64,000 nt of DNA from Candidatus Latescibacterota bacterium (GCA_965204725.1 OZ242005.1:800001-864000); one strand, 5' to 3'. Numbered from the stretch's first letter, positions 1-64,000 are shown. Notes: generated by a model not told the origin, from the letters alone. Translations and numbers: made by a program.

Positions 1-2485
1 CCATCTCGCGCATCTGTGCGATCAGGGCAGTCTCCAATTCCGCCGCCTCGTCAAAGCGCTTCTGCGAGTTGCGCGCAACTCCCGCGTGGACAAAGGCGGT
101 CAGGGCCGTATCGTTGCTGGCGATGCCCAGCCGCTCCAAGTCGAACAGGGCACCACGCACCCTCTCGGCACTCAGGCCGGATACGCCCATTAGCTCGTCA
201 GTGGAGATGCCCTCGTCCGGGTCGGCATCGATCAGGGTCTCGGCGATTCTGAGCAGCCGTTGCCGATAGTCGTCGGTCCCGGCCGCCTTGGCCAATCGCC
301 TGCGTACTTCCCGCACCGAATCTACCCGCAGAGACGAAGGAAACACCTGCACTTGGTTCTCCTCCCGGGTCAGCAGTACCGCCTCCTCAAGCCAAGAGAC
401 GGCCGTGCGCACCCGGGTGTCGTCCGTGGCGGAGTCCCGCCCGAAGACCTTTTCCTCGTCCTCGCCGAGGATCTCGCCGGCCGTGGCTACGACCTCGCCA
501 CTCAGACGCTTTTTCCGATCCAAGTTGCGCAACGCTTTCAGGACGCCGCGGATTTCCCGCTGGGTGAGCCGCGAATATGCCGACAGGCGAAACTGCCTCT
601 CCACATCGTCCGGCGCATAGAGCAGCACGCAACGCGCCATCTGTCGGTCGCGGCCGGCGCGGCCGGCCTCCTGTATGTAGTTCTCCAGCGATCCTGGGAT
701 GTCGGCGTGGATCACCAGCCGCACGTCCGGCTTGTCGATGCCCATGCCGAAGGCATTGGTAGCCGCGATCACGCGCAATTCGCCGCCGATGAAACGCTGC
801 TGCACATCCTTCTTGGTCTCCGGCGACAGCCCGGCGTGGAAGTAATCCGCCGCGATCTCCTTGTTCTGCAGGAACTCCGCCACCTTTTCGGTCTGCCGTT
901 GCGTCGCACAATAGACAATGGCACCGCCGGGCGCATCCGGCGGCAGGCCATCCATTAGGATCTGATGGATATGCGCGAATTTCTCGCCGCCGGTCGTCGG
1001 CACCACTGTAAACTCCAGATTGGTGCGCCGGGCACCGCCGTTGAAGACCTTTAGACCTATATCAAGTTCGTCCCGAAAATGCTGCTTGATGTCCTCGACT
1101 ACGTCGGGTTTGGCGGTCGCAGTCAGGCACAGCACCGGCGGGACCGGGTCCGGTTTCGCCTTTTCGCGGATGAAGCGTCCCACGTAGCGATAATCCGGCC
1201 GGAAGTCGTGCCCCCACTTCGAGAGGCAATGGGCCTCGTCCAGCACCCAAGCCCCGATCTCGCGTTGATCGAGCACGCGGCGCAGGGAACGGTTGCGGAG
1301 TTGCTCTGGCGAGATGATGAGAATGCCGGCGTCGCCCAAACGCACCCGATCTAGCGCATCGGCCCGCTCAGGCATGGACAGCAACCCATTGATGGCCACG
1401 CACGATTCGATGCCATGGGCCTCCAGCCCCGCCACCTGATCCGCCATGAGCGCGACCAAGGGCGAAATCACCACCGCGAGCGCGCCGGTTTTGTCGTAGC
1501 GGGACAGGGCCGGAATCTGGTAGCAGAGCGACTTGCCAGTGCCGGTGGGCAGAATTGCCAAAACGTGCTCCCCGGCCATTGCCGCCTCAACGATGGACTG
1601 CTGCATAGGCTGTTGTTTGTCCTCGTCCTTCGGCTCCGGCCGGAAGTCGTCAAAGCCGAACCACCGTTTGAGCTCCTTGTTCGCGTCGTGTCGCTCCCCG
1701 CACCAAGCGCAGTCCACCTCGCCGCAGGGCCTATCCCGTAGTCGGCGAATCAACCTACCGGCTTCTGGAAATTGATGTCGAACCCACGGCGGCATCACGG
1801 AATTGCCGCCGGCAACCGACAGCCAAGCCAGCGCGAAAGCGAGCGGCCAGCCGCTTTGGGCGGCATTCTTTTGCACATCCCGACCGCAATTCTGACAGGC
1901 GATGTCCGCAAGTTGCTCGCGGATTGCCGCATTGGCCTCTGCGTCGCTTGGCCGGGGCGCATCCCTTATGGAAGCGAAAACAGCGTCGAACCCCGCGCTG
2001 TCGGGTCCCGTCCCGGTCAGCCAATGCCACGCGGCGAGCAAGCCACGCGACGCCTCGCGTAACGCCGATTGCTGATTGTCAAAGACTTCTAGCGCGAGCC
2101 GAGCGTCGAGTTCCGGGTCGTTCAATTGCCCGCGTTTGAGCGGTCCATCCTGATAGTGCTTGACGAGGTGGTGATAGGGATTGCGAGGAAAGGCCAACGG
2201 ATTGAGCCGTAGCGTATCCACCGTCGGCCGCTTCAACAGTCGGAGATCGGGCTTGACCGCCTTCATAAAGGGTAAATCGAAAGCGATCAGGTTGTGGCCG
2301 AGCAGAAAGTCCGCGCCCGTAGCAAACTTGTCGAGTTCCGCCAACGCGGCCGCTAAGTCGCCGCCTTGGAAGACCAGCGGTTGATCAATGTCTCGGCGCA
2401 CCGCGGCAAAGGCACGGATGCGGTGATCCTGCTTGCCGACTTCGAGGTCGAGCGAGAGGCAGCGCGACGAAAGGCTTGGATCCAT
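1..2485 (-). CDS. RecQ-family helicase with N-terminal DEDD-like exonuclease domain (3' end runs off the window)
   Basis: Translated by hand from ATG 2485 (absent from the ORF track because it has no stop in the window): SLDLEV and GHNLIAFDL exonuclease-like motifs, then LPTGTGKSLCYQ, SPLVALMADQV, DEAHCLSKWGHDFRPDY, ATNAFGMGIDKPDVR, QEAGRAGRD. Confidence 0.9.
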   Translation of the reverse strand, partial: MDPSLSSRCLSLDLEVGKQDHRIRAFAAVRRDIDQPLVFQGGDLAAALAELDKFATGADFLLGHNLIAFDLPFMKAVKPDLRLLKRPTVDTLRLNPLAFPRNPYHHLVKHYQDGPLKRGQLNDPELDARLALEVFDNQQSALREASRGLLAAWHWLTGTGPDSAGFDAVFASIRDAPRPSDAEANAAIREQLADIACQNCGRDVQKNAAQSGWPLAFALAWLSVAGGNSVMPPWVRHQFPEAGRLIRRLRDRPCGEVDCAWCGERHDANKELKRWFGFDDFRPEPKDEDKQQPMQQSIVEAAMAGEHVLAILPTGTGKSLCYQIPALSRYDKTGALAVVISPLVALMADQVAGLEAHGIESCVAINGLLSMPERADALDRVRLGDAGILIISPEQLRNRSLRRVLDQREIGAWVLDEAHCLSKWGHDFRPDYRYVGRFIREKAKPDPVPPVLCLTATAKPDVVEDIKQHFRDELDIGLKVFNGGARRTNLEFTVVPTTGGEKFAHIHQILMDGLPPDAPGGAIVYCATQRQTEKVAEFLQNKEIAADYFHAGLSPETKKDVQQRFIGGELRVIAATNAFGMGIDKPDVRLVIHADIPGSLENYIQEAGRAGRDRQMARCVLLYAPDDVERQFRLSAYSRLTQREIRGVLKALRNLDRKKRLSGEVVATAGEILGEDEEKVFGRDSATDDTRVRTAVSWLEEAVLLTREENQVQVFPSSLRVDSVREVRRRLAKAAGTDDYRQRLLRIAETLIDADPDEGISTDELMGVSGLSAERVRGALFDLERLGIASNDTALTAFVHAGVARNSQKRFDEAAELETALIAQMREM

Positions 2486-2607
2486 AATGATATATAGAAG
2501 GCGGTGGACATTCCCTATCTTCGCGGGTTAAAATTAGGACAAATAAAGGCACTCTCAAGAGTCAACCTAATGAACGCTAGGTAGCAAGCGATCTATATCT
2601 ATCCCTT

Positions 2608-3537
2608 ATGCAGCCCATTTCTTCTCCGTCCCCGCCCCTCTTTCCCGGGTTTACCGAATCCCGCCTAGCCCTCGCCGACCAAGTCGAAATGGCGTATATC
2701 GACAATGGCTGCGCTAGTGCCCATCCCCCTTTGGTGCTGCTGCACGGCGTCTTTGACAACAAGGCCACGTGGTTCCGCTTGGCCCGCCGCTTGCCCGGCC
2801 GTCGCATTATCGCCCCCGACTTGATCGGCCACGGGCGCAGTAGCAAGCCGAGTTTTGCCGCCCACCCAGCACACGAGCGCTACTCGCCCGACATGCAGGC
2901 CGGCTACCTCGCGGCCTTTATCGCCGCCCTCGGCTTGGATGACGCAATCCTCTTGGGCAATTCGCTCGGCGGCGGCTTGGCCCTGCGCTCGTACCTCAAC
3001 TTTCCCGCCCTCGCGGCCAAAGTGCGCGGACTCGTGCTCATCGCCGCGGCCGGCTATCCGCACGAACTCCCCCTGCACGTCCGCACCCTCGGGAGCTATC
3101 CGGGCAAGCTGTTGAGCCACGCGCCAATCCACTCCTTGGCCCGCACATCCGGCCTGTTGCGCTTGGCTGTTTGGCGCACCTTCCGGCGCTGCTTCCACGA
3201 CCGCAGCAAAATCCCCCCCGAACTCGCAACGGTCGCTCGCACCGCACTGGCGACGCCCAACGCCGCGTATGCCTACCACTACTCAGCGCGGAACCTCATT
3301 CCTCCCGACGTAGCAACGTTCCACCAGTGCTTTGGCGACATCGCCTGCCCGACCTTGGTCTTGTGGGGCCGACAGGACCGCATCCTACCCGTGCGCTCGG
3401 CCCAGTGCTTCGCCGACGACCTGCCCTGCACCGATCTACACATCTTCCCCAACTGCGGCCACGCACCCCACCTCGAATACCCCGACGAGACGGCCGCCTG
3501 CATAGAGCGATGGTTGCAAAAGCACGCGGTTCTCTAG
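2608..3537 (+). CDS. Alpha/beta-fold hydrolase
   Basis: LLHG, DLIGHGRS, GNSLGG nucleophile elbow, WGRQD acid, CGHAPHLE catalytic His. Confidence 0.9.
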   Translation: MQPISSPSPPLFPGFTESRLALADQVEMAYIDNGCASAHPPLVLLHGVFDNKATWFRLARRLPGRRIIAPDLIGHGRSSKPSFAAHPAHERYSPDMQAGYLAAFIAALGLDDAILLGNSLGGGLALRSYLNFPALAAKVRGLVLIAAAGYPHELPLHVRTLGSYPGKLLSHAPIHSLARTSGLLRLAVWRTFRRCFHDRSKIPPELATVARTALATPNAAYAYHYSARNLIPPDVATFHQCFGDIACPTLVLWGRQDRILPVRSAQCFADDLPCTDLHIFPNCGHAPHLEYPDETAACIERWLQKHAVL

Positions 3538-5471: not shown

Positions 5472-6497
5472 CTACTCTCGTCTAATTTCATACTTGGCAT
5501 TTTCTGAAGCTATCAAAATGGATTTTTCGCCCCAAGATAGATTGAGCTCTAAAGGAAGCCTGTTGTCAATTACTTCTATTGCATGTATCGGTGGTCGTAT
5601 GTACTTCTTCACATAAACCGATAGAATTTGCCCTGCGTTACGCTCTATGTGTTCCCATGCTTCTTCCCCAGCCATAGCAATACCATTCGCGTTTATAAAT
5701 GCTTCGGCTAATTCCGTAAGACGAGGCGATGGAGTTGGATCCAACACGAGAAGGACAGGGGTAAATCCTGCCACTCGGCATTCTCGCGGAAAAGATAATT
5801 CCTCAGAAAAACGGCCCTGACCGCTTGCCGCAATGGTAACTCTGAGTTTGAATTCGTATGCCAAGTTTCCCTCTGCTAAAAAACAATCAATTTGACGGCC
5901 GTTTTTAGTTGAATTTCCGTTCTCATCTAAGCGTTTTACTGGTGAATTTCGCGCTCCAATAGGTTCTCCTCCTAAACAGCTCGCGAGAATAGGTTCAAAT
6001 AGATATCCCGTTTCTTGTGCAGATCGATTATCAATATCGTATATCCACTTTCTCCAAGTCATCCAGCTAAACAAAAGTTCAAGGTCACATAATCCAAATT
6101 CCAAGAGACTCCGAGGGCCAATCTGATCGGCTTGTGCAAGGGGCTGTGTCTCCAGAATTCGCTGGTACTTCACCCGTCGTCTATGGAGGGCGCATAGATT
6201 CTGAATATAGAGAGCAAAGTCGGGATGTTTCCCAACCGCATTGTCGAGTGCATGTAACAGCACCTTTGGGTTGGCATGAGGTATTTCACTTGTGGAAAAC
6301 CACGTTATAGGAATTTGGTAGTAGTCATTGGGAATTTCTATGTCGGATAACCCGAACTCAGCGAGAGGCCAGTTGAGATCTCGCATACTGATTGACAAAA
6401 GAACGTATAGTTCAGAGTCGGATATAATTACCTGTGCATCTCCCGTTCCGTGGATTTTGCACTTGCTCAGTAGGTGTCGAATTGAAGTAGTAGTCAT
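5472..6497 (-). CDS. Type II restriction endonuclease, ApaLI-like
   Basis: DNRSAQETGYLFEPILA and GRQIDC...AYEFKLRVTIAASGQGRFSEELSF match my recollection of R.ApaLI; low GC; adjacent to a C5 methylase. Confidence 0.85.
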   Translation of the reverse strand: MTTTSIRHLLSKCKIHGTGDAQVIISDSELYVLLSISMRDLNWPLAEFGLSDIEIPNDYYQIPITWFSTSEIPHANPKVLLHALDNAVGKHPDFALYIQNLCALHRRRVKYQRILETQPLAQADQIGPRSLLEFGLCDLELLFSWMTWRKWIYDIDNRSAQETGYLFEPILASCLGGEPIGARNSPVKRLDENGNSTKNGRQIDCFLAEGNLAYEFKLRVTIAASGQGRFSEELSFPRECRVAGFTPVLLVLDPTPSPRLTELAEAFINANGIAMAGEEAWEHIERNAGQILSVYVKKYIRPPIHAIEVIDNRLPLELNLSWGEKSILIASENAKYEIRRE

Positions 6498-6503
6498 AAA
6501 ACC

Positions 6504-7778
6504 TTACCCAAATAAGGTATCATTCCTTTTTAGCCGCTCTAGCAATCGCGCCGTCTTTCTGAGTACTGGACTCATTGCCGACGCCTTGGTCAAAGTGAAC
6601 CCTATCAGTGTTCCGTCTCCCATTTTTTCATTTGGCAAAAATCCATAACTTTTGATGTGTTCAGCAAAAATCTGTGCGAGTTTTGGCGGAATCGCATTGC
6701 CAATGTGCCGTATCTTATCAGACGCATTTCCCAAAAAGACAAACGAGTCTGGAAAAGTTTGGATTCTAGCGCACTCTCTAATAGTCAATGGCCGATCTTC
6801 AATGGGATGGATAAACTCTCGGCAAGCAGCCCCGGTAATCGTTAGACACGGCTCATCAAAGTGTAGTCTTTTCAGACCAGAAGGAGCACCTCCCCTTTTA
6901 TCTGAGGGCGTTCCATCCATTACCCGCCTATAGGCTCTTCTCCTAAAAGAACTGTGCTGCAACTCTGCGGGAAGATCCTTCATGGTTTGGCCTGGTTTTA
7001 AGGCGCGAATGCGCTCTGCTTGTGTATCATGAAGTAATGGACTAAAGTGATCTTCTATCTCACTAGTTCCATTCCGTATTTCACCTGCGGCAGAACTATA
7101 TCTCACCGCTTGATCCTTATTGGCAGACGGTTCGGGTAAATCGCCTATTGCATGCCTGAGCGTCAAGTTTGATTTTCTAAAAATAGCTCCATGAATATGC
7201 AGCACGGGCTGAGGCAAACCAAAATCGAGCCCCAAGCGATTGCCGATTACCAAAACGCGCTTTCTTCTCTGTGGAACTCCGTATTCGTGGGCATAGATTT
7301 TATCGACGCGTACCCGGTAGCCCAATTCGATAAATGCTTTGGTCGCTTCATATATGTACTCTCCACTTTTCGCCGTTAAAAGCCCTTCTACATTTTCCAT
7401 AATAAACCACTTTGGACCCATTATTTTTAGGGATTTAACATAGCTTTTTAATAAGCTATTCCTTGGGTCGTCCCAAAATTTGGCTCCAGCCGTGCTAAAG
7501 CCCTGACAAGGCGGCCCGCCAATTAAAACATCCAGCTCCCCTGCTTTAATTTTTAGTTTGTCGAGCAACGCACCAAAGTCAAACTCTCGCACATCACCTC
7601 GGGCGCAAATAGTATCTAGAAAGTTAGCTCTATAGGTCTTAACCGCCGCTAGGTCGCTGTCTAGGGCATACAGGATTTGATAACCAGCTTTCTTGAATCC
7701 CAATGAGCAACCACCTGCTCCGGCGAAAAGACTAAGCGCATTCGGCATCGTTGCTATCCTTTGCTGGGGGGCGTCCAT
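6504..7778 (-). CDS. DNA (cytosine-5) methyltransferase, M.ApaLI-like
   Basis: LFAGAGG, GGPPCQGFS, MENVEGL, YGVPQRRKR, RIQTFPD, IGNAIPP; start is 7778 or 7748. Confidence 0.95.
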   Translation of the reverse strand: MDAPQQRIATMPNALSLFAGAGGCSLGFKKAGYQILYALDSDLAAVKTYRANFLDTICARGDVREFDFGALLDKLKIKAGELDVLIGGPPCQGFSTAGAKFWDDPRNSLLKSYVKSLKIMGPKWFIMENVEGLLTAKSGEYIYEATKAFIELGYRVRVDKIYAHEYGVPQRRKRVLVIGNRLGLDFGLPQPVLHIHGAIFRKSNLTLRHAIGDLPEPSANKDQAVRYSSAAGEIRNGTSEIEDHFSPLLHDTQAERIRALKPGQTMKDLPAELQHSSFRRRAYRRVMDGTPSDKRGGAPSGLKRLHFDEPCLTITGAACREFIHPIEDRPLTIRECARIQTFPDSFVFLGNASDKIRHIGNAIPPKLAQIFAEHIKSYGFLPNEKMGDGTLIGFTLTKASAMSPVLRKTARLLERLKRNDTLFG

Positions 7779-7796
7779 GAAGCTCCTGAGCACTCC

Positions 7797-9799: not shown

Positions 9800-9802
9800 G
9801 GG

Positions 9803-35700: not shown

Positions 35701-36948
35701 TCAAAGCCGTTGGCAAATGACGATGTTTTCCTCTTGCATTGTGGCAGCCGTCTTACCCATAACATTGGAAGGACTGTTCTTTTTGGGCATGCGCTTATTG
35801 GGTATATTCCTAACGATGGTTTCCCGATGAGAAAATCTATGCCGAGCGAAGGCAAAAACAATAAACTCATCCGTCGGCAGGATAACATCTTTGACCCTGC
35901 GGTTACCAACCACATAGCAAACCTTCGCATGTTTTGCAAGTAGTGGCGCGATACAATTTATACTATGCTCCAAGTCGATGTAAAATGCCTCGACCTGGGC
36001 CGCACGTTTTTCATCCATAGCACGGATTTTTCCAATAGCCTCCGAAACCGGTGACGTACGCAATCTGCTTTCTTTTTTTTTGCCGCCCATTGATATGCGG
36101 TCAATTTTGCGCGAATTATTCAGGCCGATCCAATCGGCTGACAAACGCGAAAATTGTCCATACGCAACTGTTGTTTGCGAGTCGCCATACGGAGGAGATG
36201 TGATAACTAAATCGAATCCGCCCAGCGGTTGTTTTTCAGGCAACTCGCTGTTTGCGGTATTCTTACCTGAGACAAAGACCTTGACATTTTTTCTTTTATT
36301 TAAATAACTTTCAAAACCCTGCCGATTTCGGCTTATCTTGCTCTGCAAAATGCCGAGAACATCAGGCTTAAAAATTTTCATTTTCTGAGCCGGTATTCTG
36401 TTCAACTTGAACTCACTATTTTTTGTATAGGAACATTCTCGAACTGTTTCTGAAAATGCGACCCAAAAGAAATTGCGGATCGCCTCATCCTCTATGGCGT
36501 AAATGTATGCACGGAGAAAAGACAGGTACATTGTAACATCTTTGGAGAACCAATAGTCCAGATTTAGAACATCGGCAGCCGGTGTGTACGGTATATGATT
36601 AGAGAATCCAATTTGAAAAATAGTGTTGTCTAAATCCTGCAAATGAAAATCAAGCGTTCGTAGGGAAATCGAAGAGGTCTTGGCCATTGCGACCAGCCTC
36701 ACGAGGGGATTAATGTCACATCCGACGCTGTTCATTCCAAACATGGAGGCTTCTACCAAGGATGTACCAGTACCGCAATAGGGGTCGAATAACCACCCAC
36801 CTACACAGCCATACCGATCTAAGAGCTTTCTTGCAATCTGGGGAATCATCATCGCGGGATAATTGTGGAAACAATGAGTGTATTTCTTGGTATCTTCTTT
36901 TCTAAAATCCCAGGTTATATCTTTGTGTTTGTGATTGATCACCGTCAT
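35701..36948 (-). CDS. N4-cytosine DNA methyltransferase, M.MvaI-like
   Basis: HNYPAMMIPQIAR, DPYCGTGT (motif I), TSPPYGDSQTTVAYGQFSRLS (motif IV SPPY); low GC. Confidence 0.9.
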   Translation of the reverse strand: MTVINHKHKDITWDFRKEDTKKYTHCFHNYPAMMIPQIARKLLDRYGCVGGWLFDPYCGTGTSLVEASMFGMNSVGCDINPLVRLVAMAKTSSISLRTLDFHLQDLDNTIFQIGFSNHIPYTPAADVLNLDYWFSKDVTMYLSFLRAYIYAIEDEAIRNFFWVAFSETVRECSYTKNSEFKLNRIPAQKMKIFKPDVLGILQSKISRNRQGFESYLNKRKNVKVFVSGKNTANSELPEKQPLGGFDLVITSPPYGDSQTTVAYGQFSRLSADWIGLNNSRKIDRISMGGKKKESRLRTSPVSEAIGKIRAMDEKRAAQVEAFYIDLEHSINCIAPLLAKHAKVCYVVGNRRVKDVILPTDEFIVFAFARHRFSHRETIVRNIPNKRMPKKNSPSNVMGKTAATMQEENIVICQRL

Positions 36949-37334
36949 ATTATTTTATCCCTCCTGCCAAAGCATAAGTTTAAAAATTTCTCCTCAATTC
37001 TAAAACCCGTTCCGTGATTTCTTACCACATTATTATTTCGTAGATGCATTCTCAAATCAACGACAACTATATCTTTCCTGATTAAATCTAAAAAATTATC
37101 CTCATCCGGATCAGTCAAAAGATCGGCTTCATTAAACCAAAATTCCTCCTTTTCGTCTGAATTGACACGGGTATCTGCGTAAACAATAACTAAAGAGGGC
37201 ATCTTCTTTTTGAAAGTATCAATCAAGCCTTCTCCAGGCCAGTGAGCAATAAGCGTCTTATCCACATGATAAAGCCGAACCATTTCTTCCTCAACTTTTA
37301 GAAAAAGTCCTTGATTATTTGGCGTACCGAGTGG
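36945..37334 (-). pseudogene. C-terminal fragment of an MvaI/BcnI-family restriction endonuclease
   Basis: TPNNQGLFL...KEEFWF...DLRMHL...RNHGTGFRI; in-frame stop just upstream of 37334, N-terminal half absent. Confidence 0.8.
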
Positions 37335-40220: not shown

Positions 40221-41208
40221 CTGCGTTCTCCTCGTATAGCAAACACGACGCCAAGTGGTCGGGGGCGACCGCTTGCAGGACGGGCGCGCGCTGACTGCAC
40301 TCGGGCATGGCCTGGGGGCAGCGCGGATGGAAGAGGCAACCCGATGGCGGGTCCAACAACGACAGCGCGACTCCGGGAATGCCCTTGAACTCGCCCTTGG
40401 TCTCAAAAGAGGGAATGCTCGAAATCAAAAGCTGGGTATAGGGGTGTTGCGGGTTGTGAAAAATCTCCTCAACCTGGCCTACCTCAACCAGCTTGCCGCC
40501 GTACATGATGCCCAAGCGCTCGGCGAACTGCGCCATCAGGCCCATGTCGTGGCCCACCAAGAGCACGGTGGCATTGAGCTGGTGCTGGAGCTGGCGCAAG
40601 GTCTGCATGATTTGCCGCTGCACGACCACGTCGAGGGCCGAGGTCGGCTCGTCGGCCAAGATGAGCTGGGGATCGAGCGAGATGGCCTGGGCAATGCAAA
40701 CCCGCTGCTTCATGCCGCCGCTCAATTCGTGGGGGTAGAGACGGGCCACTTCCGGCTTCAGCCCGACCTTGGCCAACAGCTCGACCACGCGCTCCAACTG
40801 CGCGGCTTTGGGCGGCGGCGGATCGGTCGCATGCTCGCGCATCGTCAGCATCAGTTGCTGCCCGATCCGCATCACCGGGTTGAGCGAGTTCATCGCGCCT
40901 TGCGGCACCATGGCGACCCGCTTGAGCCGCGCCTGCCGCACTTGCTCGCCATTGAGTTGGGTCAGGTCCGTGCCGTCGTCTAAGGTCGCGCTGCCGCCGG
41001 CGATAAGGCCCGGCGTCTTGATCATCCGCAACAGGGCCAAAATCAACGTGGTCTTGCCGCTGCCGGATTCGCCGACTAGGCCAAAACGCTCGCCTTTGTA
41101 CAGGGTCAGATCGACCTCGTTCACCGCTCGGGCGATGCCGCGCCGGGTCTCGAAGTGGACCTCCAAGCCGCGAATGGCCAGCAGGACCTCTTTGTCGGCC
41201 AGGCTCAT
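40204..41208 (-). CDS. Oligopeptide-type ABC ATP-binding protein (OppD-like)
   Basis: GESGSGKTT, YPHELSGGMKQR, ADEPTSALD, GCLFHPRC; real start MSLADKE at 41208. Confidence 0.95.
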   Translation of the reverse strand: MSLADKEVLLAIRGLEVHFETRRGIARAVNEVDLTLYKGERFGLVGESGSGKTTLILALLRMIKTPGLIAGGSATLDDGTDLTQLNGEQVRQARLKRVAMVPQGAMNSLNPVMRIGQQLMLTMREHATDPPPPKAAQLERVVELLAKVGLKPEVARLYPHELSGGMKQRVCIAQAISLDPQLILADEPTSALDVVVQRQIMQTLRQLQHQLNATVLLVGHDMGLMAQFAERLGIMYGGKLVEVGQVEEIFHNPQHPYTQLLISSIPSFETKGEFKGIPGVALSLLDPPSGCLFHPRCPQAMPECSQRAPVLQAVAPDHLASCLLYEENADAPAS

Positions 41209-52150: not shown

Positions 52151-52164
52151 TTCTGAGGCGGACC

Positions 52165-53834: not shown

Positions 53835-53843
53835 AGGACCAAA

Positions 53844-56543: not shown

Positions 56544-56551
56544 GGTGAACC

Positions 56552-57787: not shown

Positions 57788-57823
57788 TCGTCCGCACTTG
57801 CAAATGCTAATGGGATTAAAGAG

Positions 57824-58138
57824 ATGCTCGAACAAGCGATTTTGGACGACATTATTCGCCGCATTGTAGAGGTGGCTCAACCGGAAAAGATCATTCTCTT
57901 TGGGTCGGCCGCACGGGGCGACCTAGGACCGAACAGCGACGTGGACTTGCTCATCATAAAGGAGGGAGCGGACGCACTTGAACTCATGGGCGATATATAT
58001 ATGAATCTCGATGGCGTCGGTGCAGCCGTCGATGCTATCGTCGTCACGCCCGACGATGTAGAGCGGTATAAGGACACCCACGCGCTGGTGATAAAGCCCG
58101 CTCTACAGGAAGGAAAGGTGGTATATGAAGCCGCCTGA
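57824..58138 (+). CDS. Minimal nucleotidyltransferase (MNT) antitoxin
   Basis: ILFGSAARGD...SDVDLLII; overlaps the HEPN start. Confidence 0.9.
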   Translation: MLEQAILDDIIRRIVEVAQPEKIILFGSAARGDLGPNSDVDLLIIKEGADALELMGDIYMNLDGVGAAVDAIVVTPDDVERYKDTHALVIKPALQEGKVVYEAA

Positions 58139-58514
58139 ACGCTTCCCTCCCGAGGACCCGCGGGAGTGGATGAATCGCGCCAGAAGCAATCTGGTTCGGG
58201 CAAAAGACCGCACTCCCGGTGCCTATCTCGAAGACTTGTGCTTTGATGCACAGCAAGCCGCTGAGAAAGCGATTAAGGCGGTGATGCTCAAGCGCGGCAT
58301 CACCTTTCCCTACGTGCATGATTTAGCCCGATTGCTTTCCCTGCTCAAGGAAGCAGGCGAAACGATCCCGGACGCTGTCGGACAGGCCAGAAAGCTCACT
58401 CGATTTGCCACAGTCACTCGCTACCCTATAGCCCAAGCCGTCACCGAACAGCATTATCTGGAGGCACTAGCCATCGCCGAAGCTGTCGTCCGCTGGGCCG
58501 AGGAACTCATATAG
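58125..58514 (+). CDS. HEPN-domain protein
   Basis: CFDAQQAAEKAIKA, HDLARL, TRYP; coupled to MNT. Confidence 0.9.
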   Translation: MKPPERFPPEDPREWMNRARSNLVRAKDRTPGAYLEDLCFDAQQAAEKAIKAVMLKRGITFPYVHDLARLLSLLKEAGETIPDAVGQARKLTRFATVTRYPIAQAVTEQHYLEALAIAEAVVRWAEELI

Positions 58515-58612
58515 CGAATTCTCCAGACAGTGTCTAGAGAATCTTCGCTGGGCAGCGTCGCCGCGCACTTTCCACTTCCTTGGTCTGTGCAAATGCTAAT
58601 GGGATTGAAGAT

Positions 58613-58990
58613 ATGCTCAAACAAGCGATTCTGGACGACATTATTCGCCGCATTGTGGACGTCGCCCAACCGGAGAAGATCATACTCTTCGGATCGGCTG
58701 CTCGCGGCGACATGAACCGCCATAGCGATGTCGATCTGCTCATTATAAAAGAATGCGCGAACCCGCTTGAACTCATGGGGCAGATTTATCAGAACCTGCA
58801 CAGGGTTGGCGCAGCAGTTGACGCCATCGTCGTCACGCCCCAGTCGGTCGAGCGCTACAAGGACACCCACGCATTGGTCATCAAACCAGCCCTACGCGAG
58901 GGAAAAGTGGTGTATGAAGCCGCCAGCGAAAATTGGCAACTCAAACGCGATGGCACTGAACGTGGCATCGTCGAAATCACGGGGGAATGA
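58613..58990 (+). CDS. Second MNT, with an unrelated C-terminal extension
   Basis: ILFGSAARGD...SDVDLLII; after VVYEAA continues SENWQLKRDGTERGIVEITGE. Confidence 0.8.
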   Translation: MLKQAILDDIIRRIVDVAQPEKIILFGSAARGDMNRHSDVDLLIIKECANPLELMGQIYQNLHRVGAAVDAIVVTPQSVERYKDTHALVIKPALREGKVVYEAASENWQLKRDGTERGIVEITGE

Positions 58991-58992
58991 TC

Positions 58993-59196
58993 ATGATTGC
59001 AAACGATCGCGAACTCGACGTCACCCTCGGACGAATCGCGCATTTTCAGCGTCAAATAGCCCATCTACGCAATATGGAAACTCATCCTGAAAATTACCGC
59101 GGCTCCGTGTCGGGATTTCTCGCTGAGGTCGACCGAATGCAGTTGGAGGTCCGTGAATATCTCAGCATGCATCCGGCCGAACTGGAGCGCGGGTGA
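58993..59196 (+). CDS. Small helical hypothetical protein, putative TA partner
   Basis: MIANDRELDVTLGRI...LAEVDRMQLEVREYL; coupled to the upstream stop. Confidence 0.7.
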   Translation: MIANDRELDVTLGRIAHFQRQIAHLRNMETHPENYRGSVSGFLAEVDRMQLEVREYLSMHPAELERG

Positions 59197-59271
59197 GCAC
59201 TTGATGACGCCGAACCGACAGCTCAGCCGTGCCAGCACTATCCTGCCTCGGCAGGAACGGAAAGAGAATTC

Positions 59272-61847
59272 ATGATCCCCCGCGAATGCAAACGTCTAGC
59301 TGAAGTTGATTTTCCCATTGCTGAGGTTTCTAAGCATGCGGCGCGGGAGAAGTCGATTCGGCATGGGCATCCGAGTACGTTGCACTTGTGGTGGGCGCGG
59401 CGGCCGTTGGCCTCGTCGCGGGCGGTGTTGCTGGCGTTGCTGCTGCCAGACCCGTGCGACGCGCACTGCCCGGAGGGCTTTAAGCAGCAAGCGCGGAACA
59501 TTCTGCGCGAGGTGCGGCAACCACCGGCGAATGATGCGGGACTGCGGCAGGGGTTGCTGGCGTTCATCGCCAACTTTGCCAACTGGAAGAATGCGGCGGA
59601 TCGCACCCATCTCAACGTGAGCCGGGCGCTGGTGCAAGCGGCGCATGGCGAGGAGCCGCCGCTCGTGGTCGATCCGTTTGCCGGCGGCGGGTCGATTCCG
59701 CTGGAGGCGTTGCGGCTGGGGTGCGAGGCGTTTGCCAGCGATCTAAATCCGGTGGCGTGTCTGATTCTCAAGGTGATGCTGGAGGATATTCCGCGGCACG
59801 GGCCGGGGCTGGCCGAGGAGTTGCGTCGGGTCGGCGGCGAAATTAAGCGGCAGGCCGAGCGGGAGTTGGCCGATCTATATCCCAAGGACGCGGACGGGGC
59901 CACGCCGATTGCCTATTTGTGGGCGCGCACGGTGCGTTGCGAAGCGCCCAACTGCGGCGCGGAGATTCCCCTGATGCGTTCGTTTTGGTTGTGCAAGAAG
60001 GCCAAGCGCAAGCGGGCGTTGCGGCATCGAGTGGAGCGTGGCGAGGGGGCGGCACCGAGCGTCGAGTTTGAGGTGGTTGAGCCGCAGGCGGATAGAGAGG
60101 TGCGCGGCGGCACGGTGGCGCGAGCGCGGGCTACGTGTTTGTGTTGCGGCGTGGTGCTGCCGCCGGAGCGGGTGCGGGCGCAGCTTGCGGCTCAACGGGG
60201 CGGCGCGGATGTGGTTTTTGACGCGGAGGGACAGCGGACGGGTGGGGCGCGGATGACGGCGGTGGTGACGTTGCGGCCCGGCGAGACGGGGCGGCATTAT
60301 CGGCTGCCGACGGACGCGGATTATGCGGCGGTGCGAAAGGCGCAGGAGCGGGTGGCGCAGGTTCTGGAGGAATGGGAACGAGGCGGGCGGCAGGGGCTTT
60401 GCCCGGTGCCGGATGAGCCGTTGCCGCCGATCGGGACGCTGGGCTTTCGTGTGCAGCGATATGGCATGATGCAGTGGGGGGATTTATTTACGGCGCGGCA
60501 GAAGGTGGCGTTGGTGGCGTTGGGAAAGTTGACGAAGAATTCATCAAGCGAGCAGCATATTATTCTCTTTCTTGCGTTGGCAATTTCGCGTTTTATGGAT
60601 GATTTCTCATCGCTTGTGCGTTGGATGGATAGAGAGACGCCTGCCGCAACATACACCCTACAGGCACTGCCTATAAAATGGGATTTTTGTGAGATTGACC
60701 CGTTCGACAAGGCGTCATGGAGTCTGACAAGTTCGATAGATTGGGTAGCAGCTCCGTCGTCTTTGCCCACAAAACGACGGAAGGATGGGAAGCGTTGCTC
60801 TCCGGCATGATTCGCGGCGGCTGGACGATTACCGGCTCTTGGCCGATCGCTACAGAGAGGCCAAGTCGCCCACGCGCCCGCGATTCCGCCGCCCTCGCCA
60901 CCAGCGTCCACCTCATTTGCCGCCCCCGCCCCGAAGACGCCCCCATCGGCGATTGGGCCGATGTCCTGCGCGAACTGCCAACCCGCGTCGCCGAGTGGAT
61001 CGACCGCTTGCAAGCCGAAGGCATCCGCGGTGCCGATCTGGTCTTCGCCTGCATCGGCCCGGCCCTCGAAATTTTCAGCCGCTACCGCGCCGTCGAAACC
61101 GCCGAAGGCGACATAATCGGCCTGCCCGATTATCTGGAGAAAGTCTGGGAGGTCGTCGGCCGCGCCGCCCTGCAACAAGTGCTCGGCACGGCCGAGGCGC
61201 AAACGCACGGCGCATTGGAAGCGGACGCCCGCCTGACCGCCCTCTTCCTGTGGACGCTCCAGAGCACAACCCCTGTTGCAGAGAATCAGGAACAAGACGA
61301 CGAGGCCGACGAAGAAGCCGTCGCCAAAGCCGCGGCCACGGGATTCGCGCTCCCCTTCGACGTCGTGCGCCGCTTCGCCCAGCCCATGGGCATTGACCTC
61401 GCCGCCCAAACCGACCGCATCATCGGCCAAGAAAAGGGCGTCGTCCGCCTCCTACCCGTAGCCGAGCGCGCCAAAAAGCTCTTCGGCGAAGACGGCGCGG
61501 CCGCCGCGGCCACTTACCTCGAAAGCGGAGCCAACGCGCAACAGACGCTATTCCCCGCCTATCAGGAAGGCGCACCCACCCTCGTCTGGGAGCCTCCACC
61601 GCGCTACGATGAATCCCCCGACGCCCCCCTTTCCGCCACTCTCGGCGACACCACCCTCGACCGCGTCCACACCGCCATGCTACTCCAATCCAGCGGCCAC
61701 GCCACCGCCCTGCGGACGCTAATCAGCGCCGAGCAAGATCGCGGCCCCGACTTCCTCCGCCTTGCCAACGCCCTATCCGCCCTCTACCCTCAAGGCTCCC
61801 CCGAAAAACGCCTCCTCGACGCCATGCTGCTGGCGGTGCCGAGGTGA
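59272..61847 (+). pseudogene. DUF1156 adenine DNA methylase with Zn ribbon, internal deletion/frameshift at about 60750
   Basis: LHLWWARRPL, DPFAGGGSIPLEA, DLNPVA, ARTVRC..PNCG; second frame VVFAHKTTEGWE, GSWPI, GADL; no DPPY motif in either part. Confidence 0.85.
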
Positions 61848-62883: not shown

Positions 62884-63807
62884 GAAGCCTTTTTAAAACT
62901 CCTTTTTTGCTTGGATTTGACGTAGGCGTACTCACCGCACCCCTTCAGGTTTCGCCTAAGAACCCTGAACGAAAGGTCTCCGATGAGTACGCCATATCAA
63001 TATCCGACCGACCTAACAGACGCGCAATGGCAGCGGCTGTCTCCCTTCTTGCCCTCGCGTCGTTGGCGTCGTGGGGGTCCGGGTCGTCCGCCCCGGACTC
63101 TACGTTTGGTGCTCAATGGGATCCTCTATCGGGCTAAAACCGGCTGTCCGTGGCCGATGCTGCCGCCGACGTTTGGGCCGTGGCAAACAGTGTATGGATA
63201 CTTCAATCGCTGGCGGCGAGACGGGCACTGGCCCCGGATACTGGACGCCTTGACCCGCCAACAGCGCACCCAACAAGGCCGCCGGCCAACCCCGTCGGCC
63301 GGCGGCATCGACGCCCAGAGTGTTAAGACCGCAACCCAAGGCCGAGCCATCGGCTACGACGCCGGGAAACGGGTCAAAGGACGCAAACGCCACCTGTTAG
63401 TCGATAGCCAAGGATCGATCCTGCAATGTAAGGTCACCGCCGCCGATGTCTCCGACGCCGACGGCCTAAAGGCCCTGTTGAGGGACTATTTCTCCGCCGG
63501 CGTCCAACGGCTGAGAAGAGTATGGGTCGATGCCGGTTACCGAGGGGAGGCGCTCAACGCATGGGTCGCCAACTTAAAACAAACCTATAAAATCCGATTG
63601 GACGTCCGTGAAAAACCACGTCCAGGCTTTACCCTACTCAAGCGCCGATGGGTCGTCGAACGAACCTTTGCTTGGTTGGGTAACTATCGTATCCACGCCA
63701 AAGACTATGAAACCTTAACCGACAATAGCCAAGCCTTTATACATATCGTTATGATCCATCTGTTGCTCAAGCGAAAAAACAAAGAAAAAGAGTTTTAAAA
63801 AGGCTTC
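62884..63807 (+). mobile_element. IS5-family element (IS1031-like), 924 bp
   Basis: Perfect 18-bp inverted repeats GAAGCCTTTTTAAAACTC (62884-62901, 63790-63807) flanked by a TAA duplication (62881-83, 63808-10). Confidence 0.95.
62983..63798 (+). CDS. IS5-family DDE transposase
   Basis: YPTDLTDAQW, TGCPW..LP, IDAQSVK, GYDAGKRVKGRKRH, VDAGY, RWVVERTFAWL. Confidence 0.95.
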   Translation: MSTPYQYPTDLTDAQWQRLSPFLPSRRWRRGGPGRPPRTLRLVLNGILYRAKTGCPWPMLPPTFGPWQTVYGYFNRWRRDGHWPRILDALTRQQRTQQGRRPTPSAGGIDAQSVKTATQGRAIGYDAGKRVKGRKRHLLVDSQGSILQCKVTAADVSDADGLKALLRDYFSAGVQRLRRVWVDAGYRGEALNAWVANLKQTYKIRLDVREKPRPGFTLLKRRWVVERTFAWLGNYRIHAKDYETLTDNSQAFIHIVMIHLLLKRKNKEKEF

Positions 63808-63821
63808 TAAAAGGAGGCCCC

Positions 63822-64000
63822 ATGCCAAGAAAAGACCTACTTATGCCCATGCCCACCGAAGAGCAGATCGCAAAGAACCCGGCGGTTGATCCTAAGATCG
63901 TCAAAGAGGCACAGCAAATGCGCCGAGAGCTCGAAGAATTGGGAGTGTGGGAGGATAGCGGCAGTCGGGTGAGTAATCCCTTTGAAACCAAGCCGACCTC
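63822..64000 (+). CDS. Small hypothetical protein (runs off the window)
   Basis: AAGGAGG RBS, then MPRKDLLMPMPTEEQIAKNPAVDPKIVKEAQQMRRELEELGV, open to the window end. Confidence 0.65.
   Translation, partial: MPRKDLLMPMPTEEQIAKNPAVDPKIVKEAQQMRRELEELGVWEDSGSRVSNPFETKPT

What the first reader, a model, noticed from the sequence alone, without database searches (positions are those of the whole stretch)
1..64000. Window-wide loss of CCWGG with excess of its C-to-T products
Seen: I found only about 15 CCAGG/CCTGG by eye, several inside low-GC islands or the IS. Roughly 200 would be expected from base composition. CCAAG/CTTGG are very common, and the normally rare CTA codon recurs in CCTAG context (2664, 22875, 32424, 50173). 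Knowledge: these are the products of deamination of C(5mC)WGG, which Vsr normally repairs. Inference: long-term Dcm-type methylation without very-short-patch repair has rewritten codon usage. The alternative is site avoidance driven by the MvaI-like system at 35.7-37.3 kb, whose N4mC would not itself give C-to-T changes.
Basis: partly seen in the sequence, partly recalled or inferred. Interest (0 to 1): 0.7.

Follow-up and report, generated by a model that had tools for sequence, protein, structure and literature searches.

The report
Near-extinction of CCWGG by restriction avoidance
This uncultured bacterium has purged almost every CCWGG site, and some twenty other palindromes, from its genome, most likely because of restriction enzymes circulating in its lineage and not because methylated cytosines decayed to thymine.

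Summary
The window has 14 CCWGG sites against 214 (base composition) or 122 (Markov-3) expected. The whole 5.43-Mb genome has 1166 against 17889 or 10608, which makes CCWGG by far the most depleted pentamer.

The proposed cause, Dcm-type 5mC deamination without Vsr, is mostly not supported.
- At orthologous positions, 319 of 331 CCWGG sites of a relative are lost, through changes at all five positions including many transversions.
- In the frame where both C-to-T routes change the protein, sites are still lost, by synonymous W-to-S changes.
- Matched controls show no pooled excess of C-to-T products (60 of 124 vs 669 of 1448).
- This genome has no Dcm-like methylase.
- Overall codon usage is not shifted towards TTG or CTA.

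CCAAG/CTTGG is abundant because CAG-to-CAA and CTG-to-TTG are the main synonymous escapes. CTAGG/CCTAG is not in excess.

CCWGG is one of 20 of 64 palindromic hexamer-class sites with O/E below 0.3, and A/T-only palindromes are among them. EcoRII-type or MvaI-type systems, or their remnants, occur in 10 of 31 genus genomes. The window's MvaI-family nuclease is a dead remnant beside an intact methylase.

Verdict: an extreme but ordinary case of restriction-site avoidance. A modest C-to-T bias in one reading frame is left unexplained.

The parts
1..64000 (.). Window-wide depletion of CCWGG. The 14 sites are at 693, 6991, 35994, 36910, 37234, 38300, 40311, 40473, 40686, 41199, 51602, 52618, 57551 and 63622.
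   Evidence: 14 observed against 214 (zero order) or 122 (Markov-3). The same depletion holds genome-wide.
35701..36948 (-). Intact 415-aa N4/N6-family DNA methyltransferase. It is the methylase partner of an MvaI/BcnI-family restriction system and is now effectively an orphan. It lies in a low-GC island.
   Evidence: PF01555, PF01170. Orthologues at 83-87% identity lie about 8-12 kb from the window-syntenic block in G005, G032 and G034, consistent with the same locus; the shared aldo-keto reductase neighbour was seen only in G005. GC is 0.478 for 36001-38000. The CCWGG target and N4 chemistry are inferred from the partner nuclease family and from recalled knowledge of M.MvaI. They were not tested.
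36945..37322 (-). 5'-truncated remnant of an MvaI/BcnI-family restriction endonuclease. The ATG ORF at 36945-37283 is 112 aa, and the open frame reaches 37322. It covers only residues 116-240 of the 240-aa orthologue and lacks the PD...E-X-K catalytic motif.
   Evidence: profile 133-227 of 227. (profile 105-227, open frame 129 aa). (83% identity to residues 116-240 of the G005 enzyme). (catalytic PDF..IEIK motif aligned with R.MvaI at residues about 57-66 of the full-length enzyme). (only about 100 bp remain between the remnant and the stop of the neighbouring SBP gene).
6504..7793 (-). C5 cytosine DNA methyltransferase of unknown specificity in a low-GC island. It contains one of the 14 CCWGG sites (6991).
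   Evidence: PF00145, E 1.6e-68. 29% identity to E. coli Dcm over the catalytic half only. GC is 0.481 for 6001-8000.
5472..6497 (-). 341-aa ORF with no Pfam match directly downstream of the C5 methylase. It may be the cognate nuclease (inferred from position only).
   Evidence: no family. Adjacency.
40311..41199 (.). Local cluster of four surviving CCWGG sites in normal-GC DNA, inside oligopeptide ABC-transporter genes.
   Evidence: Bin 840001 is among the 19 genome bins with 4 or more sites, against 2.6 expected. Gene identity.
62983..63798 (+). IS4/IS5-family transposase gene carrying one CCAGG (63622).
   Evidence: DUF4096, DDE_Tnp_1..

Best explanation
The loss of CCWGG is restriction-site avoidance. 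Natural selection removed the site itself from long-resident DNA, under pressure from CCWGG-directed Type II restriction-modification systems that have come and gone in this lineage.

Two such systems circulate in the genus:
- An MvaI/BcnI-family nuclease with an N4/N6-family methylase. This window keeps its intact methylase and a dead nuclease remnant.
- An EcoRII-type nuclease with a Dcm-like 5mC methylase. It is present in the sister genome.

Any mutation that destroys a site without harming the protein was fixed. So the replacements follow reading frame and general codon preference:
- CAG to CAA.
- CTG to CTC or TTG.
- CCW to CCS.
- NCC to NCT or NCG.
- A change of the preceding third codon position.

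This explains why CCAAG/CTTGG is abundant while CTAGG/CCTAG is not. CCWGG is only one of about twenty palindromes purged in the same way.

Shown: the depletion, its lineage distribution, the replacement spectrum, the gene content, and the weaker depletion of low-GC DNA.

Inferred: that restriction was the selective agent, which system acted when, and the sequence specificity and methylation chemistry of the enzymes.
For: (1) Size and specificity. CCWGG O/E is 0.11 (Markov-3) and the next pentamer is at 0.67.

(2) Orthologous sites.
- Of 331 CCWGG sites of G009 aligned to this genome, 12 are kept. Other SSWSS pentamers are 39-61% conserved.
- Of 683 sites of the undepleted outer clade, 7 are kept.

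(3) The replacements use all positions. Among 240 single-step replacements:
- CCAAG 61, CCSGG 52, CGAGG 32, GCAGG 19, CCACG 18, CAAGG 13, CCAGC 12, CTAGG 8.
- TCAGG, CCAGA, ACAGG, CCAGT and CCATG 5 each.

(4) Frame [CCW][GGN], where both inner C-to-T routes are non-synonymous.
- 52 of 55 sites are lost, 35 by synonymous W-to-S.
- The class is retained in 6 of 63 cases against 190 of 692 controls, p = 0.0014.

(5) Matched controls.
- Leu escapes of deamination type vs other: 18:26 against control 410:347 (recent step), and 127:55 against 520:278 (deep step, p = 0.26).
- Pooled recent step: 60 of 124 against 669 of 1448, p = 0.64.

(6) Leu codons in the C_G context (CTC 315, TTG 286, CTA 77, TTA 53, CTT 30, CTG 6) match the genome's general Leu usage once CTG is removed.

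(7) Palindromes in general.
- 20 of 64 palindromic hexamers have O/E below 0.3, against 1 of 2016 non-palindromic pairs. That one is GTAGAC/GTCTAC, part of GTMKAC.
- TTTAAA (0.09) and AATATT (0.23) contain no cytosine.
- The outer clade lacks this pattern.

(8) Cognate systems.
- MvaI-family remnant plus intact methylase here.
- Intact pairs in G005 and G032, and remnants in G034 and G004.
- A complete EcoRII-N/EcoRII-C nuclease plus a methylase 48% identical to E. coli Dcm in G038, with the methylase also in G030, G033, G012 and G026.
- None of the 7 least depleted genomes carries either.

(9) Low-GC bins, presumed recent imports, have a CCWGG/GGWCC ratio of 0.25-0.60 against 0.10 in core DNA.

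(10) Published framework: avoidance grows with the residence time of orthodox Type II systems and survives their loss (PMC4687349, abstract and section 19 read).
Against: - The nuclease in this genome is dead, and no other CCWGG nuclease was found. EcoRII-C gave no match, though that search had no positive control. No current agent is therefore shown.
- Genomes with the intact MvaI-type pair are no more depleted (G005 0.52, G032 0.43) than main-clade genomes without any such system (about 0.31-0.55).
- Enzyme specificities rest on homology only. The nuclease matches R.MvaI at E 2.8e-17 and R.BcnI at E 5.7e-13. Public sources name the methylase only as 'DNA methyltransferase'.
- In frame [NCC][TGG], T is favoured at the inner C beyond the control: 25:12 against 74:113, OR 3.2, p = 0.002, and 48:37 against 75:135, OR 2.3, p = 0.0017.
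- CCAAG rose 3.2-fold between the outer and main clades while the other NCAAN pentamers changed 0.83-1.5-fold. The frame argument explains this, but it is also what a C-to-T push would give.
- Comparisons are pairwise and unpolarised. Reading frames were inferred from alignments, not from gene calls. 91 of 338 G009 sites had no assignable frame, and 8 more fell at gaps or short blocks.
- No methylation data exist.
Confidence: 0.75

Rival explanations
1. Hybrid. Selection against the site did the removing, but 5mC deamination supplied a substantial share of the mutations. This would have happened in periods when a Dcm/EcoRII-type methylase was resident in ancestors that had no Vsr.
For: - Vsr is absent from all 31 genus genomes.
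- An EcoRII-type pair with a Dcm-like methylase sits in the sister genome G038, and the methylase is in four more congeners.
- T is in excess at the inner C in frame [NCC][TGG], in both the recent and the deep comparison (OR 3.2 and 2.3, p about 0.002).
- CAA is in excess among changed Gln codons in the deep step (97:56 against 261:303, OR 2.0).
- The 3.2-fold rise of CCAAG is flank-specific.
Against: - There is no enrichment among Leu escapes, where transition and transversion routes compete directly (OR 0.59 and 1.23).
- The recent-step Gln OR is 1.05.
- CTAGG is not enriched: 2.2% of outer-clade sites.
- This genome has no Dcm-type methylase and shows no scar of one at the syntenic hotspot.
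- The T excess in one frame can arise from ordinary transition bias. When C is forbidden, the return path from T is closed.
- The 'other' class in the Gln test is non-synonymous, so the test is biased towards CAA.
Confidence: 0.15
2. The decay is purely mutational: Dcm-type 5mC at CCWGG deaminates to T, nothing repairs it, and the site erodes as CpG does in vertebrates, without selection on the site.
For: - No Vsr.
- CCAAG/CTTGG is the most frequent replacement: 61 of 240 single steps in the recent comparison, and 217 of 683 sites in the deep one.
Against: - 171 of 240 single-step replacements are not inner C-to-T.
- Sites where C-to-T is non-synonymous are lost as thoroughly as the rest, by W-to-S.
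- The two expected products are very unequal: 61 against 8, and 217 against 15.
- No Dcm-like methylase is present.
- Undepleted congeners also lack Vsr.
- About twenty other palindromes, A/T-only ones among them, are depleted alongside.
Confidence: 0.04
3. Second-order selection. The motif is avoided to lower the load of harmful mutations at 5mC hotspots. A preprint proposed this for Vibrio cholerae RCCGGY.
For: - The preprint 10.1101/070839 (passages read) reports about 30% under-representation of RCCGGY without Vsr, and more under-representation in genomes lacking Vsr.
- This model would explain loss by synonymous W-to-S in frame [CCW][GGN].
Against: - It needs a resident 5mC methylase for CCWGG, and none was found here.
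- The selection coefficient would be of the order of a mutation rate (inference).
- The depletion here is about tenfold, not 30%.
- It does not explain the avoided A/T-only palindromes.
Confidence: 0.03
4. A translational or dicodon bias unrelated to DNA-level recognition, such as avoidance of particular codon pairs.
For: Most sites lie in coding DNA, and the replacements are mostly synonymous.
Against: - All three reading frames and both orientations are depleted to a similar degree.
- The pattern is palindrome-specific: 20 of 64 against 1 of 2016.
- It changes between close relatives.
Confidence: 0.02

Closest known systems
Restriction-site (palindrome) avoidance in host genomes, including 'traces of lost R-M systems' (Rusinov et al. 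2015, PMC4687349, abstract and section 19 read; Gelfand and Koonin 1997 and Rocha et al. 2001 recalled, not read)
   Same: - A short palindrome is strongly under-represented after Markov correction.
- Cognate orthodox Type II systems are present in the genome or in close relatives.
- Avoidance persists after the nuclease is lost.
- Relatives share overlapping but not identical sets of avoided sites.
   Different: - The degree is extreme for a 5-bp site: O/E 0.065-0.11.
- The genus shows a graded series, from about 3.0 down to 0.087 on one index.
- Two chemically different system types appear to aim at the same site.
- The lineage consists of uncultured Candidatus Latescibacterota MAGs. Two text searches found no report of palindrome avoidance for this phylum.
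E. coli Dcm-Vsr: 5mC at CCWGG with very-short-patch repair (as described in passages of preprint 10.1101/070839; Bhagwat and McClelland 1992 is cited there and was not read)
   Same: The target sequence is the same. A Dcm-like methylase 48-51% identical to E. coli Dcm exists in some congeners.
   Different: - In E. coli the site is over-represented by about 26%, which is attributed to Vsr over-correction.
- Here it is about tenfold under-represented.
- Vsr is absent from all 31 genomes.
- This genome lacks the Dcm-like enzyme.
MvaI (CCWGG) and BcnI (CCSGG) monomeric restriction endonucleases, PDB 2oa9 and 2odh
   Same: The full-length orthologue in G005 (240 aa) matches R.MvaI (E 2.8e-17) and R.BcnI (E 5.7e-13), and the PD...E-X-K motif is aligned. 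The window ORF matches Pfam MvaI_BcnI.
   Different: - Identity is low, so the central-base specificity (W or S) is not established.
- The window copy keeps only the C-terminal half and cannot be active.
- CCSGG is not depleted (Markov-3 O/E 1.12). This fits a W-specific enzyme but proves nothing.
Vibrio cholerae VchM (RCCGGY) under-representation without Vsr (preprint 10.1101/070839, passages read)
   Same: A 5mC target motif is under-represented in a genome that lacks Vsr.
   Different: The effect there is about 30% and is tied to a resident orphan 5mC methylase. Here it is about tenfold, with no such methylase in the genome.

Membership tests
Restriction-site avoidance driven by orthodox Type II R-M systems | The site is strongly under-represented after correction for shorter words | tested here: met
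   Markov-3 O/E is 0.11 genome-wide and the next pentamer is at 0.67. The window has 14 against 122.
Restriction-site avoidance driven by orthodox Type II R-M systems | A cognate separate nuclease and methylase are encoded in the genome or in close relatives | tested here: inconclusive
   MvaI/BcnI-family and EcoRII-type systems or remnants occur in 10 of 31 genus genomes. Their CCWGG specificity is inferred from homology and was not assayed. The copy in this genome is a dead nuclease plus an intact methylase.
Restriction-site avoidance driven by orthodox Type II R-M systems | Sites are removed by any tolerated substitution, not by one mutational path | tested here: met
   Replacements occur at all five positions. 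Synonymous W-to-S is used where C-to-T is non-synonymous. The escape codons mirror general codon usage.
Restriction-site avoidance driven by orthodox Type II R-M systems | Recently acquired DNA is less depleted than long-resident DNA | tested here: met
   The CCWGG/GGWCC ratio is 0.25-0.60 in bins with GC below 0.55 and about 0.10 in bins with GC of 0.58 or more.
5mC deamination decay of a methylase target (Dcm without Vsr) | A resident C5 methyltransferase specific for CCWGG | tested here: not met
   - 11 PF00145 matches in the genome, none close to E. coli Dcm; the best is 31.6% identical.
- That best match is M.HhaI-like over its full length.
- The G038 Dcm-like enzyme has no counterpart here at E 1e-80, and its best tblastn match is 35% identical.
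- Specificities of the other C5 enzymes are unknown.
5mC deamination decay of a methylase target (Dcm without Vsr) | Absence of very-short-patch repair (Vsr) | tested here: met
   PF03852 gives no match in this genome, and tblastn with E. coli Vsr gives a best E of 0.5. 0 of 31 genus genomes match, the undepleted ones included. The genome is rated 94% complete.
5mC deamination decay of a methylase target (Dcm without Vsr) | CTWGG and CCWAG are specifically enriched over other one-step variants | tested here: not met
   - CTAGG/CCTAG is not enriched.
- CCAAG/CTTGG is enriched, but in matched codon contexts the pooled share of C-to-T products is 60 of 124 against 669 of 1448.
- Only frame [NCC][TGG] shows an excess.
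5mC deamination decay of a methylase target (Dcm without Vsr) | Sites where C-to-T would be non-synonymous persist | tested here: not met
   Frame [CCW][GGN]: 52 of 55 sites are lost. 6 of 63 are retained against 190 of 692 controls.
MvaI/BcnI restriction endonuclease family (Pfam PF15515), for ORF 36945-37322(-) | Match to the family profile | tested here: met
   E 2.4e-14, but only profile positions 133-227 or 105-227 of 227.
MvaI/BcnI restriction endonuclease family (Pfam PF15515), for ORF 36945-37322(-) | Catalytic PD...(D/E)-X-K motif present | tested here: not met
   The motif lies at about residues 57-66 of the full-length orthologue. The window copy begins at residue 116.
EcoRII-type R-M (in sister genome G038, not in the window) | A nuclease with EcoRII-N and EcoRII-C domains next to a Dcm-like C5 methylase | tested here: met
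   L118: a 461-aa ORF with PF09217 (E 4.6e-54) and PF09019 (E 1.8e-62), beside a 410-aa PF00145 methylase 48% identical to E. coli Dcm. It is absent from this genome.

The most novel reading that the evidence does not exclude
Two chemically different restriction systems aimed at the same five bases alternate at defence hotspots in this Vsr-less genus. One is EcoRII-type with 5mC protection. The other is MvaI-type, presumably with N4mC protection.

From recalled knowledge, MvaI-type enzymes cut Dcm-methylated DNA. Each takeover would then leave the chromosome unprotected for a time. This 'competition for one recognition sequence' would explain why the site was driven almost to extinction in the G000/G038 branch and not merely to the twofold level seen elsewhere in the genus. 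Deamination during 5mC phases would add the C-to-T bias seen in one reading frame.
Probability: 0.2. Interest if true: 0.55.

Novelty: new member of a known kind. Interest (0 to 1): 0.35.

Why it matters
It gives a clean way to tell a mutational cause of motif loss from a selective one, a question usually left at the level of k-mer counts. The test uses frame-resolved replacement spectra with matched controls.

The genus is a natural series. The outer clade has normal CCWGG and no palindrome avoidance. Most of the main clade is depleted about twofold on the same index. Two genomes are depleted about tenfold. Intact, decayed and absent restriction systems sit at known loci across this series. 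That could be used to measure how fast avoidance builds up and decays after a restriction system is gained or lost.

There is also a practical caution. Abundant 'deamination products' next to a depleted methylase target are not evidence of deamination, because synonymous escape routes generate the same words.

Tried and rejected
- **Pattern search.** CCWGG was too short for the tool. I used GCCWGGC with the tool's reversed-pattern control instead. That index is inflated where GGWCC is itself depleted, as in G009.
- **Rfam.** The scan of the window found nothing.
- **Timing of the loss.** The three-way comparison G009/G038/G000 overlapped over only 27 kb and 27 sites. All 27 are lost in both genomes, 16 to the same state and 11 to different states, against a control of 380:233. 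That is too few to say whether the loss predates the G000/G038 split.
- **Scar of the EcoRII-type system.** I looked for one in this genome. The syntenic hotspot holds a different low-GC cassette with an AAA_21/AAA_15 ATPase and no EcoRII-like sequence. Past presence can be neither shown nor excluded.
- **Specificity of this genome's C5 methylases.** Five neighbouring low-GC ORFs have no Pfam family, one has an HNH domain, and one has a weak ParB_N match. Only C5_1 could be typed, as HhaI-like.
- **Name of the window methylase.** The public-source search returned only generic names.
- **'Codon usage was rewritten'.** Rejected. TTG is 0.237 here against 0.249 in G009, and CTA is 0.074 against 0.092. 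Only 97 of 358 CAG-to-CAA and 99 of 459 CTG-to-TTG differences from the outer clade lie in the CCWGG context.
- In the printout the labels for frames [NCC][WGG] and [NNC][CWG][GNN] were swapped. I recognised this from the codon changes. Searches use explicit codon definitions.
- **Supplementary files.** Those of the two papers were not opened. They may hold per-site avoidance tables that include CCWGG.

Full report
**Observation**

The window (G000 contig 1, 800001-864000) has GC 0.61 and 14 CCWGG sites. Expected counts are 214 from base composition, 155 under Markov-1, 166 under Markov-2 and 122 under Markov-3.

Six of the 14 sites lie in low-GC or mobile DNA:
- one in a C5-methylase island;
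- three inside the MvaI-type R-M genes;
- one in a defence island;
- one in an IS4/5-family transposase gene.

The depletion is genome-wide. There are 1166 sites in 5.43 Mb against 17889 (zero order) or 10608 (Markov-3). This is the lowest O/E of all pentamers, 0.11, and the next lowest is 0.67. The 51.7-kb second contig is also depleted (20 sites).

CCAAG/CTTGG is indeed very common (genome O/E 2.37 at zero order, 1.26 at Markov-3). The other predicted deamination product, CTAGG/CCTAG, is not (0.46 and 1.12). Under Markov-3 several non-deamination neighbours are equally or more enriched. The four cited CTA codons are in frame. CTA is barely enriched in the C_CTA_G context, with 106 observed against 91.7 expected.

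**Context: a general purge of palindromes**

CCWGG is not alone. Of 64 palindromic hexamers, 20 have Markov-4 O/E below 0.3 and 28 are below 0.5. Among 2016 non-palindromic pairs the figures are 1 and 4, and the single pair below 0.3 (GTAGAC/GTCTAC) completes the degenerate palindrome GTMKAC.

The list includes TTTAAA (0.09) and AATATT (0.23). These contain no cytosine, so cytosine deamination cannot have produced them.

The genome has 11 matches to the C5-methylase family, all in DNA of GC 0.43-0.56. It also has about ten matches to the N4/N6 methylase query.

**Relatives**

Titles of related public records name Candidatus Latescibacterota MAGs, and some name Gemmatimonadota.

I compared GCCWGGC with its reversed control in 31 genomes of the genus:

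| Genome(s) | Ratio |
|---|---|
| G000 (this genome) | 0.087 (77 vs 888), the lowest |
| G038 | 0.136 |
| 22 other genomes | 0.31-0.55 |
| G037 | 0.65 |
| G009 | 1.21 |
| G023, G024, G031, G029, G021 | 1.8-3.0 |

By DNA identity to the window, G038 is the nearest relative (89-94%). Most genomes, G009 included, lie at about 82-90%. The five high-ratio genomes lie at 74-77%.

Sequence samples confirm the gradient. CCWGG zero-order O/E is 1.29 and 1.46 in G021 and G031, 0.39 in G009, 0.10 in G038 and 0.07 here. The hexamer avoidance is likewise absent from the outer clade. For example, GTGCAC is 0.84 and 0.69 there, against 0.26, 0.08 and 0.01 in G009, G038 and G000.

**Direct test at orthologous positions**

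I aligned 400 kb of G009 and 400 kb of G038 to this genome.
- HSPs shorter than 500 bp, below 75% identity, or overlapping a better HSP by more than 10% were dropped.
- That left 277 kb at 84.8% identity for G009 and 266 kb at 90.4% for G038.

Of 331 ungapped aligned G009 CCWGG sites, 12 are still CCWGG here. The other SSWSS pentamers are 39-61% conserved.

The 240 single-step replacements were:

| Replacement | Count |
|---|---|
| CCAAG | 61 |
| CCGGG | 42 |
| CGAGG | 32 |
| GCAGG | 19 |
| CCACG | 18 |
| CAAGG | 13 |
| CCAGC | 12 |
| CCCGG | 10 |
| CTAGG | 8 |
| TCAGG, CCAGA, ACAGG, CCAGT, CCATG | 5 each |

Inner C-to-T therefore accounts for 69 of 240. Its two strand-symmetric products are very unequal, at 61 against 8.

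**Frame-resolved test**

Reading frames were inferred from the alignments. Of 338 G009 sites, 91 had no assignable frame, 7 lay at gaps and 1 in a short block. In that printout two frame labels were swapped; later calls use explicit codons.

*Frame [CCW][GGN].* Here both inner C-to-T changes alter the protein.
- 52 of 55 sites were lost, 35 of them by synonymous W-to-S.
- With explicit codons the class is retained in 6 of 63 cases, against 190 of 692 controls (p = 0.0014).
- A purely mutational C-to-T process would have left these sites in place.

*Frame [NNC][CTG][GNN].*
- Deamination-type escapes (TTG, CTA, TTA) against others (CTC, CTT) are 18:26.
- The same codon outside the CCWGG context gives 410:347 (OR 0.59).

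*Frame [NNC][CAG][GNN].* CAA against other changes is 18:27, with control 203:319 (OR 1.05).

*Frame [NCC][TGG].* Only this frame shows an excess. T against G/A is 25:12, with control 74:113 (OR 3.2, p = 0.002).

*Pooled.* The three tests give 60 of 124 against 669 of 1448 (p = 0.64).

**The deeper comparison**

The outer clade has no CCAAG excess (zero-order O/E 0.66 and 0.80).

Between the outer and main clades, frequencies per 10,000 pentamer positions changed as follows:
- CCAAG rose from 7.8 to 24.8, a 3.18-fold rise. The other fifteen NCAAN pentamers changed 0.83-1.5-fold.
- CCAGG fell from 21.6 to 3.0.

I aligned 163 kb of G021 and G031 at 74% identity, dropping HSPs under 300 bp.
- Of 683 outer-clade sites, 7 are kept.
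- 217 are CCAAG/CTTGG.
- 15 are CTAGG/CCTAG.

The frame analysis explains the preponderance of CCAAG.
- 429 of 597 framed sites lie in [NNC][CWG][GNN], where CAG-to-CAA is the only synonymous change within the codon and CTG-to-TTG is one of the main ones.
- Leu escapes of deamination type against other are 127:55, with control 520:278 (OR 1.23, p = 0.26).
- CAA against other changed codons is 97:56, with control 261:303 (OR 2.0). The 'other' class there is non-synonymous, so this test is biased.
- [NCC][TGG] again shows a T excess, 48:37 against 75:135 (OR 2.3, p = 0.0017).

In this genome the Leu codons that occupy the C_G context are CTC 315, TTG 286, CTA 77, TTA 53, CTT 30 and CTG 6. That is close to the genome's overall Leu usage once CTG is removed.

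**Codon usage**

- TTG is 0.237 of Leu codons here and 0.249 in the far less depleted G009. CTA is 0.074 against 0.092.
- The main clade does use more CAA (0.434 against 0.257), TTG and CTA than the outer clade.
- Only 97 of 358 CAG-to-CAA and 99 of 459 CTG-to-TTG differences lie in the CCWGG context.
- Only 61 of 1484 aligned CCAAG/CTTGG sites and 9 of 222 CTAGG/CCTAG sites of this genome correspond to CCWGG in G009.

The general shift is unexplained.

**Enzymes**

*The window's MvaI-type pair.*
- The ORF at 35701-36948 (minus strand) is an intact 415-aa N4/N6-family methylase.
- The adjacent ORF matches the MvaI/BcnI nuclease family only over its C-terminal half.
- It corresponds to residues 116-240 of the intact 240-aa orthologue in G005.
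- That orthologue aligns with R.MvaI (E 2.8e-17) and R.BcnI (E 5.7e-13). The catalytic PD...E-X-K motif is at about residues 57-66, so the window copy is a dead remnant.

*The MvaI-type pair elsewhere in the genus.*
- It is intact in G005 and G032.
- It is reduced to a methylase plus a nuclease scrap in G034, and to a methylase fragment in G004.
- In G005, G032 and G034 it lies about 8-12 kb from the window-syntenic block, consistent with the same locus; only G005 was seen to share the aldo-keto reductase neighbour.
- G009 has an empty site there: 562 bp against 1741 bp.

*Dcm-like enzymes.*
- No C5 methylase of this genome resembles E. coli Dcm closely (best 31.6%). That best one is M.HhaI-like over its full length.
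- G038 carries a complete EcoRII-type pair. The nuclease has both EcoRII-N and EcoRII-C domains, and the methylase is 48% identical to Dcm.
- That methylase recurs in G030, G033, G012 and G026.
- The pair sits in a variable low-GC hotspot. At the same place this genome holds an AAA-ATPase cassette and no EcoRII-like sequence.

*Overall.*
- 10 of 31 genomes carry one or the other system or its remains.
- None of the seven least depleted genomes does.
- Within the main clade, carriers (median about 0.41) are no more depleted than non-carriers, apart from the two extremes.
- Kin are not independent, so this is descriptive only.
- Vsr is absent from all 31 genomes.

**Where the surviving sites are**

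- Relative to GGWCC, CCWGG stands at 0.25-0.60 in 2-kb bins with GC below 0.55, and at about 0.10 in bins with GC of 0.58 or more.
- Sites are slightly clustered: 19 bins hold 4 or more, against 2.6 expected.
- The survivors are young. Only 12 of 46 aligned sites are shared with G009, and 9 of 45 with G038.

**Explanation**

The data fit selection against the site itself. Any tolerated site-destroying change was fixed. The choice among changes followed reading frame and general codon preference. Imported DNA is not yet purged. Many other palindromes were treated alike.

This is the known phenomenon of restriction-site avoidance, including its persistence after the loss of the system (PMC4687349, abstract and section 19).

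- Shown: the pattern.
- Inferred: that restriction was the agent, and which system acted when. The enzyme specificities rest on homology and no methylation data exist.

A minor mutational contribution from 5mC deamination cannot be excluded. It would have come in ancestors that carried the EcoRII-type methylase. The T excess in frame [NCC][TGG] is the only signal for it. That excess can also arise from ordinary transition bias, because once C is forbidden the way back from T is closed.

**Comparison with the known, and verdict**

- In E. coli, Dcm with Vsr goes with over-representation of CCWGG by about 26%.
- In V. cholerae, VchM without Vsr goes with about 30% under-representation of its motif (passages of preprint 10.1101/070839).
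- The tenfold depletion here is of a different order and is not tied to a resident 5mC enzyme.

I file it as a new, extreme member of a known kind. Two text searches found no report of palindrome avoidance in this phylum. One search on CCWGG avoidance returned general works only (listing seen).

Noticed in passing
whole genome G000; samples of G009, G038, G021, G031: The clade containing this genome avoids about twenty hexamer palindromes (GTGCAC 0.01, GTMKAC, TTCGAA, CATATG, GTTAAC, CAGCTG, TTTAAA and others). The outer clade of the same genus shows almost none of this. The sets also differ between close relatives: CATATG is 0.70 in G009 and 0.06 here, and CTTAAG is 0.96 against 0.23.
   Followed up: partly
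aligned coding DNA, outer clade vs G000: There is a general shift of synonymous usage between the outer clade and the main clade that the CCWGG context does not explain. Gln CAA rises from 0.257 to 0.434, Leu TTG from 0.186 to 0.235, and CTA from 0.045 to 0.077. CTAG-containing words roughly double.
   Followed up: partly
window 53757-61847: A defence-type island in lower-GC DNA. It holds a 928-aa PHP plus AAA/SMC-like ATPase, a Schlafen/AlbA_2 protein with a HATPase_c_4 domain, and a DUF1156 protein.
   Followed up: no
G000:C1:5130800-5133200 (locus L143) and G038 locus L144: A variable hotspot flanked by short repeats. G038 holds an EcoRII-type R-M pair there, and this genome holds a low-GC cassette with a 540-aa AAA_21/AAA_15 ATPase.
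   Followed up: partly
window 35994, 36910, 37234: Three of the window's 14 CCWGG sites lie inside the MvaI-type methylase and nuclease-remnant genes themselves, in DNA of GC 0.41-0.48.
   Followed up: no
G000 loci L001, L003, L005, L006, L007; window 5472-7793: Most C5 methylase genes have an adjacent low-GC ORF of 210-373 aa with no Pfam family, or with an HNH domain in one case. These are probably uncharacterised restriction nucleases.
   Followed up: partly
window 25988-28132 and 30071-32014: Two paralogous large proteins with DUF6785 plus DUF6784, on opposite strands.
   Followed up: no
G025 and G027 (loci L091, L092): A second, distant MvaI/BcnI-family nuclease, 40% identical to the G005 enzyme. 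Its specificity may differ.
   Followed up: no
G000 contig C2 (51.7 kb): The small second contig is also strongly depleted in CCWGG: 20 sites, or 0.39 per kb, against 0.21 per kb on the chromosome. It has evidently shared the host's history.
   Followed up: no
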